Shown here piece by piece: positions 53,163-56,100 of a stretch of 64,000 bases of DNA; position 1 is the first letter of the stretch, and every line of letters begins with the position of its first letter. The DNA lies in assembly GCF_003018115.1 (NCBI RefSeq), contig NZ_CP027457.1; one strand, written 5' to 3'. The notes beneath the pieces are model-generated. The model ran no database searches and had not been told where the DNA came from. It was given only the letters and a program-made list of their open reading frames with translations. The stretch comes from Escherichia coli. GTDB taxonomy: Bacteria; Pseudomonadota; Gammaproteobacteria; Enterobacterales; Enterobacteriaceae. A program made the translations under genes and the position numbers.

Positions 53163-56100
53163 TCAGCGGATACTGATCCCCGCGCTGTTTTTCTTCACCA
53201 CTATCGCCTGAAGGTTACTGATTCGTGAACTGCCCCAACTGTCATTCTGACGCCGTGAGCTCACGGTAAAACTCAGGGTGATATGACCACCGCCAGCTGG
53301 CATATCGATGATCCCGCTGAAAATTCCCGGCTCTGCCACTGACCTGCCTGAATAAATCCGGCGTCCGTTCTGATCAACATGCAGGAAGCACTCTGTCCAG
53401 ATGTCATTACTGGTACGGGATTCCTGTTTTGACCCGACATAGATTATCGGCGGGATTATAATCTGCCGGTCAAAGCTGTGATCGTCATACACCGTCAGCG
53501 TTCGTGTACCGTTCGCAAGGTAACTACCATCCACCGGAAAAGCCACCCCTGCACATTTCACAAGATCACCAATAATGTTCTCCGCTTTCAGCGTGCCATT
53601 TATCGTACAGTTCTCCGCTATCACGACATTATTGAGCGTGCCCGAGTTCGCTGTAACAGCTCCGCTGATATCCGCATTGCGGGCCGTCAGCCTGCCCTCC
53701 GGCGTCAGGGAGAACGTCGGGGGATTGCCGGATGACGTGATACTCACCGCAAACAGTCGCTTCAGGAACACGTCGTTCATGAACAGCTGATTCCCCTGTG
53801 CCACAAACAGCGGCGTGGTGTTGCCGTTCTCCGGGGTAATCATCGCGATACGGTCCGCCTGCAGCAGAATATTGCTCAGCGTCTGGCCATCAGCATCCTC
53901 AATCCCCGCACCAATACCGGCAACATACGGAATGCCGTTTTTCGTTTTCTGCACCTTCAGCATGTACAGCGCTGCCAGCTCATCATTCGTGTCTGACTGG
54001 ACCTGCTGTATCTGCTGTATGGTCGCGCTCTGGTCTTCCAGCTTTTTATCCGTGGTCGAGGTGATTTCACTCCCTTTGTCATCCACGTACTGGCGGACCT
54101 GCGCTATCTGCCTGGCGTTTTCCTCCGTGCTCTGGCTGACTGTCTGTGTGATTTCACTGCTCACCCGGTCCACCTGCTGACTCACCTGCGCGATGGCCAG
54201 CGTCTGGTCCTCATTCTTTTTCGCAACCAGCTGCGTGAGGCTGTTTTCCGCCTCCCCGATTTTTCGGGTCACTTCCGCAACATCCGTCTCCAGCCGCTGG
54301 CGGATGTCTTCTTCCAGTTGCGTGACCTCAGTACGCAGGGCTGACGCATCAATACGCTCTTTCAGTGCCTTCCCCAGCAGCGCCTCATCTATCAGCCCAC
54401 GGAAAATTTCCAGATACCCTTCACCATCATTGCTGGCCTGCCCGCTGGCCTCCACAAACGCAGATTTCCCCACCAGGTTGACGCTGCGCACATAAAACCA
54501 GAAATCCTTCCCCGGCTTAATGTGCGGGCTGGAGACGCTCCACTGGCTGCCGGTACCCAGATAACGGGCAGAGGTTTCCACCTGTGCCGTGTCCGTGATG
54601 CGTTTTTCTGAGAACCAGAATTCAGACTGTACCATCGGGTCATACACCGCAGGATGCGGGACCACCGTTATCTGAAAATAGCCCGGCGTCAGTTCAATGC
54701 TGGCCGGTGCCGCCGGTGCATTAATCCGGAATGTGGTGGTGGCAGGTTCGCCCTGCTGGCCGTAGCTGTTTATCGCCCTGACCGTCAGGGTGTATTCCCC
54801 GAGCGGCAGGCCACTGAAACGGTGCTCCGTGTCCGCCGTGATGGCGCTGGTCACCAGGCGGCTGTTTTCACCGTTTCCGCTGGTCAGGCGCAGACTGAAG
54901 CGCACGCCCTTCACCACCCGCGGCGTGTCCCATTTCGCCAGCGCCAGATACTGGCCGTCTGAGGCACTCACCTCCACCGTGAGGTGCTGCACTGCCGGCG
55001 GGATGACGCTGTTCAGTGAGCCGGACATCGGCTCAAAGCGGGCCCCGTTATCCACAATGGCTTCTTTTTCCGGCACATGCTGCACCGCCGTGATGGCAAA
55101 GGTGCCGTCCGTGTTTTCCCGGATGGAAACACAGCGGAACAGGCGACGACGCAGTGACGGCAGGGAGAGTCCCCACACACCGTATGTCGCCACGCCATCA
55201 GGCAGGACGCTGACCTGTATCCGGTCCGGGGCGGGGTGTGCAGTGATGTCCACGCACACCGGCTTACCGCTGCCGTTAATCAGGTTCACCGTCGATGTAC
55301 CTGTCTCCGGCAGTGTCACCTCACGGTCCAGCGTCAGTGTGCGGCTGGCGGCATCGATGGACAGGATGCGTCCGCCGGTCAGGGTCCCGGCATAGTCGTT
55401 ATCACAGATTTCAATGATGTCACCGGGTGTGTGCCGCAGCCCCTGAGACCCGAGCGTGAAATCCACCGTCTGCGTTTCCAGCAGTTCGGTCTTTATCACC
55501 CACAGTCCGGCACGGTGGGCCTGACCGCGGCTGGTACAGCCGAACGCGTCCATCTTCAGCAGATTGCGCCCGTAGCGCAGGATGGCGTCCGGGTCTTCCA
55601 CCAGTTCCGTGGAAGTCTGCCAGCCGTTCTGCGGGTCGGTGTAATTCACCTCCACCGCCGTGTGCCGGTCCTTCAGGGCACTGAAGCTGTAGCGGAACCC
55701 CACGCCGTTATCATCCACCACCACATCGCTGTTGGTGTACGGCCACACCACATCCGACGGACGGTCCTGAACGAACGTCAGCGTCTGGCCGTTCCATACC
55801 GGCATACAGCGCATCGCCGAGCAGAAATCCCCCAGGACATCCCACACCTTACGCTGCTGTGACAGGTACGCATTAAAGGTCATCCGCGGCTCTGTGCCCC
55901 CGAAACCATCCGGGACCGTCTGGTCGCAGTACTGCCCGATGGCATACAGCGCCCACTTGTCCACATCCGCGGCCCCCAGGCGTTTTCCCATCCCGTAGCG
56001 CGGGTGAGTCAGCATGTCCCACAGGCACCAGGCCGGGTTATTGCTGTATGCCGGTTTCAGACTCCCGTCCCAGATACCGCTGTAGGTGCGTTTTTCCGGG

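What the first reader, a model, noticed from the sequence alone, without database searches (positions are those of the whole stretch)
53163..54360. J protein with inserted coiled-coil segment and divergent C-terminal domain
The N-terminal ~800 residues track lambda J closely. A ~130-aa Gln/Glu-rich coiled-coil-like insert follows (...[42 protein letters not shown]...[25 protein letters not shown]), about 53970-54360. The last ~150 residues are strongly diverged from lambda J, whose C-terminus binds LamB, implying a different receptor.
Basis: partly seen in the sequence, partly recalled or inferred. Interest (0 to 1): 0.3.

Follow-up and report, generated by a model that had tools for sequence, protein, structure and literature searches.

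The report
Lambda-type tail tip with lengthened shaft
This is the tail-tip (host-recognition) gene J of a lambda-like prophage in E. coli. Its helical shaft carries about 100 extra residues and its receptor-binding tip is a distinct, uncharacterised type. Both features are swappable modules seen in many E. coli genomes, so it is an ordinary but instructive variant.

Summary
The gene is gpJ on the minus strand (53163-56849, GTG start, 1228 aa). Residues 1-835 are 72.5% identical to lambda J without gaps.

A clean 100-101-aa insertion (residues 836-936, window 54042-54344) sits inside lambda's alpha-helical shaft (AHS). It falls at the junction of the upper helix and the helix that becomes beta-strand on LamB binding. 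With the next 30 residues it forms about 4.3 tandem 29-residue units, proline-free, with hydrophobic period 3.65. AlphaFold2 predicts it helical.

The beta-prism fibre that follows is 69% identical to lambda. The last 135 residues are the same Ig-like receptor-binding domain family (PF12421, E 5.6e-37). They are only 42.5% identical to lambda and are equidistant (42-48%) from the LamB-binding lambda type and the OmpC-binding A8/1A2 types. A different receptor is therefore plausible but unproven.

The gene is a mosaic. It equals phage phi1720a-02 J (98% nt) except for a shaft cassette like that of phage PhiR40_1. The insert occurs in 724 of 5426 complete E. coli genomes and the RBD type in 100.

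In passing: four tandem PasB-family sRNA genes lie between I and J.

The parts
53163..56849 (-). gpJ (tip attachment / central tail fibre protein), 1228 aa, GTG start, stop codon 53163-53165
   Evidence: ORF. Six J-specific Pfam domains above their cut-offs. PDB lambda gpJ at E=0. RefSeq CDS with the same ends in E. coli W24.
54345..56849 (-). Residues 1-835: hub domains, FNIII/Ig domains and the upper shaft helix. 72.5% identical to lambda J 1-837.
   Evidence: Lambda domain names come from PMC11101478.
54042..54344 (-). Residues 836-936: the 100-101-aa insertion relative to lambda J, inside the alpha-helical shaft (AHS). Predicted helical.
   Evidence: Alignment gap at lambda 837/838. AF2 helix with block-mean pLDDT about 84-91 over most of the insert, falling to 71-80 at its C-terminal end, with and without an alignment. 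29-residue repeats and 3.65 periodicity. No solved homologue.
53952..54041 (-). Residues 937-966: last shaft unit, homologous to lambda 838-867. In lambda, 841-861 turn from helix to beta-strand on LamB binding.
   Evidence: Beta in the alignment-based AF2 model and helix in the single-sequence model. The only place where the F7-pyocin strand motif occurs.
53571..53951 (-). Residues 967-1093: central straight fibre (beta-prism), Pfam Phage_Tail_Tip. 69% identical to lambda.
53166..53570 (-). Residues 1094-1228: Ig-like receptor-binding domain (PF12421) of a distinct type. 42.5% identical to lambda, 98.5% to phage phi1720a-02.
54020..54450 (-). Approximate recombinant shaft cassette: the only stretch where this J departs from phi1720a-02 J. 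It resembles PhiR40_1 J instead.
   Evidence: Sliding nucleotide and protein identity profiles.

Best explanation
The region is the 3' third of an intact lambda-family gpJ gene. gpJ is the trimeric central tail fibre that plugs the tail tip and binds the outer-membrane receptor. The protein is modular. Its hub/FNIII body (residues 1-835) and beta-prism fibre are lambda-like. Its alpha-helical shaft between FNIII-2 and the beta-prism is lengthened by 100 residues, through extra copies of the 29-residue unit of which lambda has one. Its C-terminal Ig-like receptor-binding domain is a separate sequence type.

Shown: the domain homologies, the position and repeat structure of the insertion, and its helical character by prediction. 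Also shown: this allele differs from phage phi1720a-02 J essentially only by a swapped shaft cassette, and infectious phages carry each module.

Inferred:
(i) The extra segment forms a three-helix bundle that makes the closed fibre about 15 nm longer (100 residues x 0.15 nm). Lambda's closed fibre measures about 29.7 nm from FNIII to RBD.
(ii) On receptor binding the last, lambda-homologous unit switches to beta-strand as in lambda. The inserted units more likely stay helical or form an external 'spine'.
(iii) The RBD binds a trimeric outer-membrane porin whose identity cannot be read from the sequence.
For: - Pfam: FNIII-A_GpJ, Phage-tail_3, Ig_J, Ig_J_second, Phage_Tail_Tip and Ig_GpJ_C all exceed their cut-offs.
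- PDB: lambda gpJ aligns to ORF residues 18-853 and 954-1244 (numbered from the TTG at 56900; subtract 17 for the GTG numbering used elsewhere), leaving a clean gap. With the shaft alone as query, lambda aligns to query 1-26 and 128-177 only.
- Identity by segment: 72.5%, insertion, 21%, 69%, 42.5%.
- Lambda's shaft is a three-helix bundle. Its helix 809-840 shortens and 841-861 become two beta layers on LamB binding; the closed fibre is 29.7 nm (PMC11101478).
- 29-residue periodicity scores 124 against shuffles 35.5 +/- 6. Hydrophobic period is 3.65, with no Pro.
- AF2 with a 48-sequence alignment gives a helix at residues 835-925 (block-mean pLDDT 85-90 for 839-888, falling to 71 by 909-918). 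It then gives strands at 929-937, 940-953 and 957-970 (pLDDT 52-67). Its best PDB match is the OPEN lambda fibre, 8xcj, at E 1.6e-31.
- AF2 single-sequence gives one helix at 822-959.
- Mosaic: 98% nt identity to phi1720a-02 J outside gene positions ~2400-2830; 80-96% nt identity to PhiR40_1 J across positions ~2200-3190, then ~50%.
- Both phages are infectious. phi1720a-02 lysogenises E. coli and Citrobacter rodentium (PMC6328086). PhiR40.1 was used in infection assays (PMC13190303).
- Shaft length classes among 50%-identity representatives, measured from GYLxFF(K/R)G to Y(V/I)AGxG: 63, 91 and 164 residues. One longer form (P0126) was counted by eye from the sequence at roughly 260 residues and may contain assembly duplication.
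- The insert is in 724 of 5426 complete E. coli genomes and the RBD type in 100 of 5426, so the two assort independently. P0122 carries the same shaft with an unrelated C-terminus.
Against: - No experiment or solved structure covers the inserted residues.
- The AF2 models are monomers of a trimeric fibre. The alignment is only a few sequences deep over the insert, and that alone biases toward helix.
- One of 500 composition shuffles reached the observed periodicity power.
- Length classes are not integer multiples of 29: the differences are 28 and 73. Simple unit-by-unit duplication is therefore not the whole history, and no DNA-level tandem repeat remains.
- The receptor is unassigned.
Confidence: 0.75

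Rival explanations
1. The whole ~130-residue coil is a fold-switching energy store of the F7-pyocin kind. [quoted passage not shown]
For: In the F7 pyocin, a 163-residue coiled coil of the homologous central fibre converts to a beta-prism. Similar switches are predicted in 21 of 24 siphophage fibres (PMC12874032). In lambda, the unit homologous to the repeats (841-861) does switch. The inserted units are paralogues of that unit. The F2-pyocin fibre coil is the only other tail-fibre PDB hit to the insert, though not significant (E 0.41).
Against: The SxSxxMxxLxS strand motif is not enriched: 2 matches against 2.6 expected by shuffling. Both matches lie in the last, lambda-homologous unit, at residues 942 and 950. 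By eye, the inserted units carry large or charged residues (R, L, Y, Q, D) at the 'small' positions. Gln substitutions at those positions block switching in F7. Both AF2 runs keep residues 836-925 helical, mostly at high confidence; only 929-970 flips with alignment depth. The F7 authors state that lambda and T5 do not show the extensive switch.
Confidence: 0.2
2. The length difference is selectively near-neutral. The shaft tolerates any length, and the alleles are by-products of recombination between prophages, with no functional consequence.
For: At least four length classes coexist with otherwise near-identical J bodies. The same RBD works with the 91-residue spacing in phi1720a-02. The same side-fibre locus accompanies both lengths, so there is no co-variation with the side fibre.
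Against: The long form is kept intact and is common (724 genomes, mostly 90-95% nt identity, so it is old and diversified without decay). The amphipathic periodicity and absence of Pro are preserved across 130 residues. The shaft is the element that transmits the receptor signal to the tail plug in lambda, so its length is unlikely to be irrelevant to kinetics.
Confidence: 0.25
3. The C-terminal domain still binds LamB, as lambda's does. The divergence reflects arms-race drift, not a receptor change.
For: It belongs to the same domain family and fold, and the framework strands are conserved. LamB is also used by unrelated phage RBDs.
Against: Identity is only 42.5%, with indels in the first and second variable stretches of the alignment. 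RBDs equally distant from lambda (A8, 44%) bind OmpC in a solved complex and in lamB-deleted cells. Among 50,697 phage records no intermediate links this type to lambda's: every match other than phi1720a-02 is below 60% identity, and the best of those sampled is 49%.
Confidence: 0.2

Closest known systems
Bacteriophage lambda gpJ (tip attachment protein J; PDB 8iyk, 8xck closed, 8xcj/8xci open)
   Same: Same gene position after I. Same domain order: hub, FNIII-1/2, alpha-helical shaft, beta-prism fibre, Ig-like RBD. 72.5% identity over the first 835 residues and 69% in the beta-prism.
   Different: The shaft is 100 residues longer, with about 4.3 rather than about 1 copy of the 29-residue unit. 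The RBD is only 42.5% identical, with different loops.
Stx2d phage phi1720a-02 J (KF030445, 1155 aa)
   Same: 98% nt identity outside the shaft. RBD 98.5% identical. The downstream locus has the same order of similarly sized genes: a 141-bp ORF where the window has its Hok-like ORF, a ~570-aa fibre gene and a ~224-aa gene.
   Different: It has the medium shaft, 73 residues shorter. It carries one or two PasB-like units rather than four between I and J.
Temperate phage PhiR40_1 / PhiR49_2 J (PV340560, 1232 aa)
   Same: The same long shaft (86% aa identity over the 132-aa coil) and the same beta-prism fibre.
   Different: A lambda-like N-terminal body. An RBD of the 1A2/OmpC type, 43% identical to this one. 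Followed by lom and a different side fibre.
Natural gpJ C-terminal variants A8 and 1A2 (OmpC-binding; PDB 9wca/9wcb; Nature 2024, PMC11338833)
   Same: Same PF12421 RBD family. They show that prophage J tips of this family can use OmpC instead of LamB.
   Different: 44% (A8) and 43-48% (1A2-like) identity to this RBD. A8 and the 1A2-like RBDs are 61-62% identical to each other, so this one is a separate type.
F-type pyocin central fibre protein (F7/F2; PDB 25vf; PMC12874032)
   Same: A homologous J-like hub (E 6e-124 over ORF residues 20-713, i.e. GTG residues 3-696), with a long coiled coil preceding a beta-prism.
   Different: The coil sequences are not significantly similar (E 0.41). The pyocin strand motif is absent from the inserted units. 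There is no evidence here for a full-length switch.

Membership tests
Lambda-type tip attachment protein J (central tail fibre) | N-terminal hub and FNIII/Ig domains (Phage-tail_3, FNIII-A_GpJ, Ig_J, Ig_J_second) | tested here: met
   All four exceed the Pfam cut-offs, E 1e-37 to 9e-42. 72.5% identity to lambda J 1-837.
Lambda-type tip attachment protein J (central tail fibre) | Beta-prism fibre (Phage_Tail_Tip) followed by a C-terminal Ig-like RBD (Ig_GpJ_C) | tested here: met
   PF09327 at E 3e-24 and PF12421 at E 5.6e-37. The model matches 8xcj and 8xck.
Lambda-type tip attachment protein J (central tail fibre) | Gene order: tape measure - M - L - K - I - J - side fibre | tested here: met
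   ORFs in the window and the RefSeq annotation of the identical locus in E. coli W24.
LamB-binding lambda-type RBD | Close sequence identity to lambda residues ~995-1132, including the receptor loops L1-L4 | tested here: not met
   42.5% identity, with indels and different residues in the variable stretches between conserved strands. The loop residue ranges are not given in the text I could read.
LamB-binding lambda-type RBD | Dependence on LamB for adsorption | not testable with these tools
   Needs plating or transduction on lamB mutants.
OmpC-binding A8/1A2-type RBDs | Sequence membership of the A8 or 1A2 cluster (members 80-99% identical within a type; 61% between the two types) | tested here: not met
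   44% identity to A8 and 43-48% to 1A2-like sequences.
Fold-switching coiled-coil central fibres (F7 pyocin type) | A long coiled coil directly upstream of a beta-prism 'seed' | tested here: met
   About 130 helical residues predicted, period 3.65, followed by the PF09327 beta-prism. This rests on prediction only.
Fold-switching coiled-coil central fibres (F7 pyocin type) | Repeated SxSxxMxxLxS strand motif along the coil | tested here: not met
   Two matches, both in the last unit, against 2.6 expected by chance.
Fold-switching coiled-coil central fibres (F7 pyocin type) | Alternative helix and beta predictions with shallow versus deep alignments | tested here: inconclusive
   Seen for residues 929-959 only. 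The insert stays helical, but the alignment is shallow there and the models are monomers.

The most novel reading that the evidence does not exclude
The shaft of lambda-family J proteins may be a tunable module. Natural alleles with anchor-to-anchor spacings of 63, 91, 164 and possibly about 260 residues, on otherwise near-identical proteins, would set either the reach of the central fibre through the O-antigen or capsule layer, or the size of the helix-to-beta power stroke. The pair phi1720a-02 J and this J (98% nt identical outside the cassette) would then be a ready-made natural experiment. It would link lambda's 21-residue switch to the 163-residue switch of F-type pyocins.
Probability: 0.25. 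Interest if true: 0.55.

Novelty: new variant of a known kind. Interest (0 to 1): 0.3.

Why it matters
How non-contractile tails turn receptor binding into tail opening is only now being resolved: lambda in 2024, F-pyocin in 2026. The shaft sits at the centre of both mechanisms. A common natural allele adds 100 residues exactly at lambda's switch point, on a body 72% identical to lambda and nearly identical to a known infectious phage. That gives a simple genetic handle on whether shaft length affects reach, kinetics or penetration.

The RBD is a fifth, uncharacterised type in a family already used to retarget lambda particles to OmpC. It could extend that toolbox once its receptor is known. 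Neither point is surprising to a phage specialist.

Tried and rejected
- DNA-level tandem repeats in the insert: none with an 87-nt period. The duplication is old or the cassette was imported whole.
- Strict quantisation of shaft length in 29-residue steps: rejected. The class differences are 28 and 73 residues.
- F7-pyocin strand motif as evidence for a full-length fold switch: not enriched.
- Receptor assignment by nearest characterised RBD: impossible, because this RBD is equidistant from the LamB and OmpC types.
- Literature on phi1720a-02 and PhiR40.1: no receptor is reported. The 2026 receptor-prediction preprint covers Drexlerviridae-type GpJ tips, not this family.
- First protein database search: it returned only near-identical E. 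coli fragments and added prevalence but no diversity.
- Literature search for shaft length variation ('helical shaft' + gpJ): nothing beyond the lambda structure paper.
- Rfam scans of the I-J gap: negative. The repeats were identified as PasB through the literature instead.
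Full report
CONTEXT. The window is E. coli chromosome with a lambda-like prophage inserted next to aspS/yecD. The J gene is 100% identical to that of E. coli W24 (NZ_CP141591) and 98.6-99% identical to many non-O157 STEC and bovine isolates. The finding covers the 3' third of the minus-strand gene J. The mechanical ORF runs 53163-56900. The real start is the GTG at 56849 ([17 protein letters not shown]..., lambda [17 protein letters not shown]...), as in the RefSeq annotation, giving 1228 aa. All residue numbers below count from that GTG.

CHECKING THE OBSERVATION. Pfam finds the full J architecture: FNIII-A_GpJ, Phage-tail_3, Ig_J, Ig_J_second, Phage_Tail_Tip and Ig_GpJ_C, each well above its cut-off. 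Against solved structures, lambda gpJ aligns in two blocks separated by about 100 query residues.

A global alignment gives these segments:
- Residues 1-835: 72.5% identical, no gaps on the lambda side.
- Residues 836-936: no lambda counterpart. The insertion lies between lambda T837 and E838.
- Residues 937-966: 21% identical to lambda 838-867.
- Residues 967-1093: 69% identical.
- Residues 1094-1228: 42.5% identical.

However, the '130-aa insert' is a 100-aa insertion plus lambda's own, diverged, 30-residue helix. The C-terminal domain is diverged but clearly homologous. In window coordinates the insertion is 54042-54344, the whole coil 53952-54344 and the RBD 53166-53570.

WHAT THE INSERT IS. 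[quoted passage not shown] On LamB binding the upper helix (809-840) shortens, and residues 841-861 turn into two beta layers on top of the prism. The distance from FNIII to the RBD tip shrinks from 29.7 to 13.2 nm.

The insertion here falls exactly between those two helices. It is not foreign sequence. Self-comparison shows a 29-residue period across residues 842-960, scoring 124 against 35.5 +/- 6 (maximum 59) in 300 shuffles. A 58-residue echo scores 68, also above the shuffle maximum. That is about 4.3 units, the last being the unit lambda has:
- [29 protein letters not shown]
- [29 protein letters not shown]
- [29 protein letters not shown]
- [29 protein letters not shown]
- LAALYMLKV...

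The 131-residue coil has no proline and two glycines. Its hydrophobic periodicity is 3.65 (29/8 = 3.625), not a canonical 3.5 heptad. No solved structure covers it: lambda chains align to both flanks and skip it, and the only other tail-fibre hit is the F2-pyocin coil at a non-significant E of 0.41. There is no DNA-level tandem repeat.

STRUCTURE PREDICTIONS. AF2 on residues 819-1228 with a 48-sequence alignment gives one long helix over 835-925. Block-mean pLDDT is 85-90 for most of it and falls to 71 at its end. Strands follow at 929-937, 940-953, 957-970 and onward (pLDDT 52-67), and then a confident prism and RBD. The best PDB match of this model is the OPEN state of the lambda fibre (8xcj, E 1.6e-31), ahead of the closed state (8xck).

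The single-sequence run gives one helix over 822-959. So the last, lambda-homologous unit is predicted as beta or helix depending on alignment depth. That matches its experimentally known two states in lambda. The inserted units stay helical in both runs.

The strand motif SxSxxMxxLxS marks fold-switching coils in F-type pyocins (PMC12874032). It occurs only twice, both times in the last unit, and is not enriched. These results favour a static helical extension over a fully switching coil, but only weakly. The models are monomers, and the alignment is only a few sequences deep over the insert.

MOSAIC ORIGIN AND PREVALENCE. At nucleotide level this J is 98% identical to phage phi1720a-02 J (1155 aa) over gene positions 1-2200, and 91-100% from about 2836 to the end. 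Identity collapses only between about 2400 and 2830 (window ~54020-54450). Across that stretch, and on to about position 3190, it resembles J of the temperate phage PhiR40_1 (1232 aa; 80-96% nt; 86% aa over the coil). The two then diverge to about 50% in the RBD.

The allele is thus phi1720a-02 J with a swapped shaft cassette. Both donors are infectious phages, so each module is functional.

Among 50%-identity representatives, the distance between the anchors GYLxFF(K/R)G and Y(V/I)AGxG falls into classes of 63 (lambda type), 91 and 164 residues. One longer form (P0126) was counted by eye at roughly 260 residues and may contain assembly duplication. The same shaft also occurs with an unrelated C-terminus (P0122).

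The insert is found in 724 of 5426 complete E. coli genomes, mostly at 90-95% nt identity. This RBD type is found in only 100 genomes. Among 50,697 phage records, only PhiR40_1 and PhiR49_2 have the insert. Only phi1720a-02 has this RBD; every other record is below 60% identity, and the best of those sampled is 49%.

THE RECEPTOR-BINDING DOMAIN. The domain belongs to PF12421 and shares the conserved strands (...FDRQI......IDMPAG.G......KK...GISI) with lambda. It has its own sequence in the variable stretches: [33 protein letters not shown] and [13 protein letters not shown].

At least five types exist among E. coli prophages:
- Lambda type, which binds LamB.
- A8 type, which binds OmpC (solved complex 9wcb; delivery into lamB-deleted cells).
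- 1A2/PhiR40_1 type, which binds OmpC of the EDL933 kind.
- A P0141 type, receptor unknown.
- The present type.

The present type is 42-48% identical to all the others, whereas A8 and the 1A2-like RBDs are 61-62% identical to each other. The sequence does not say which receptor. Because the RBD is a C3 trimer that docks on trimeric porins in both solved cases, a trimeric porin is the most likely class (inference). phi1720a-02 lysogenises both E. coli and Citrobacter rodentium, so the receptor should be conserved between them.

HOW IT MOST LIKELY WORKS. Steps shown by homology to solved lambda structures: J trimerises, its hub closes the tail tip, and the RBD binds an outer-membrane protein. 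The signal then passes up the beta-prism to the shaft, whose lower helix refolds and releases the FNIII domains, opening the tip.

Steps inferred for this allele: the 100 extra residues extend the three-helix bundle by about 15 nm, roughly half again the lambda fibre length. The last unit switches as in lambda, and the extra units remain helical or become an external spine. Possible benefits are reach through O-antigen or capsule on wild hosts, or altered trigger kinetics. Neither is tested. The same side-fibre locus accompanies both the medium and the long shaft, so shaft length does not co-vary with the side fibre.

COMPARISON WITH WHAT IS KNOWN, AND NOVELTY. This is a member of the lambda gpJ family; all defining features tested were met. 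It is not a member of the lambda/LamB RBD type or of the A8/1A2 OmpC types. It resembles the fold-switching pyocin fibres in having a long coil before a beta-prism, but fails their motif test outside the last unit.

I found no paper that describes shaft-length alleles in lambda-family J. The F7 pyocin authors note that lambda lacks the extensive switch. The allele is common and is annotated generically as gpJ. I rate it a new variant of a known kind, of modest interest. Its main value is as a natural isogenic series for testing what shaft length does.

NOTICED IN PASSING. The 860-bp gap between I and J holds four tandem units of about 220 bp; lambda has 60 bp there. Each unit aligns with the PasB sRNA locus of EPEC E2348/69. 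That locus lies in the same place, between I and gpJ, antisense to the tail genes. Other items are listed separately.

Noticed in passing
window 56925-57770 (+ strand), between tail genes I (57763-58443, -) and J: There are four tandem ~220-bp units. Each has a CRP-like box (AAAATTTCTGAA..TTCACATTT), a -10-like (C/T)ATAAT and a plus-strand intrinsic terminator (CCCGCAGC...CTGCGGGATTTTTTT). All four align with the PasB sRNA locus of EPEC E2348/69 (83 nt, between I and gpJ, antisense to the tail operon). The RNA bodies differ between units, and unit 2 has a different terminator stem. The full four-unit array is in 66 of 5426 complete E. coli genomes and a single unit in about 722; phage records carry one or two. 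The 2026 Pas sRNA survey reports typically one PasB variant per genome and does not describe tandem Pas arrays. Rfam has no matching family..
   Followed up: partly
window 52824-53111 (-), between J and the side tail fibre gene: A hok/sok-type toxin-antitoxin module sits where lambda has lom. It has a 46-aa Hok-like ORF (52824-52964), annotated Hok/Gef in the identical W24 locus. There is also an Rfam sok match at 52953-53111 (50.3 bits, below the gathering score of 59, E 2.5e-9). No lom gene is present..
   Followed up: partly
window 50966-52678 (-) and 50073-50795 (-): The side tail fibre is 570 aa. It has a prophage tail-fibre N-terminal domain, a Gly-X-Y collagen-like stretch of roughly 200 residues in a region of GC up to 0.71, and a Gp53-like C-terminal domain. 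A DUF4376 protein follows. RefSeq annotates the same stretch in strain W24 as two fragments, one a pseudogene, although the window ORF is continuous..
   Followed up: no
window 48638-49850 (+): This is the prophage-chromosome junction. yecD is followed by a truncated ORF, which W24 annotates as incomplete and missing its C-terminus. From my own knowledge of this E. coli locus it is probably yecE, a known integration site of Stx and other lambdoid prophages; no tool result named it. Next come a DinI-like gene (49555-49803) and a YkgJ-family fragment..
   Followed up: no
protein P0122; no window coordinates: A database J fragment carries the same long shaft (95% identical) joined to a completely different C-terminal domain of about 200 residues, not PF12421-like by eye. 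The shaft-plus-prism module is therefore shared between unrelated receptor-binding tips.
   Followed up: no
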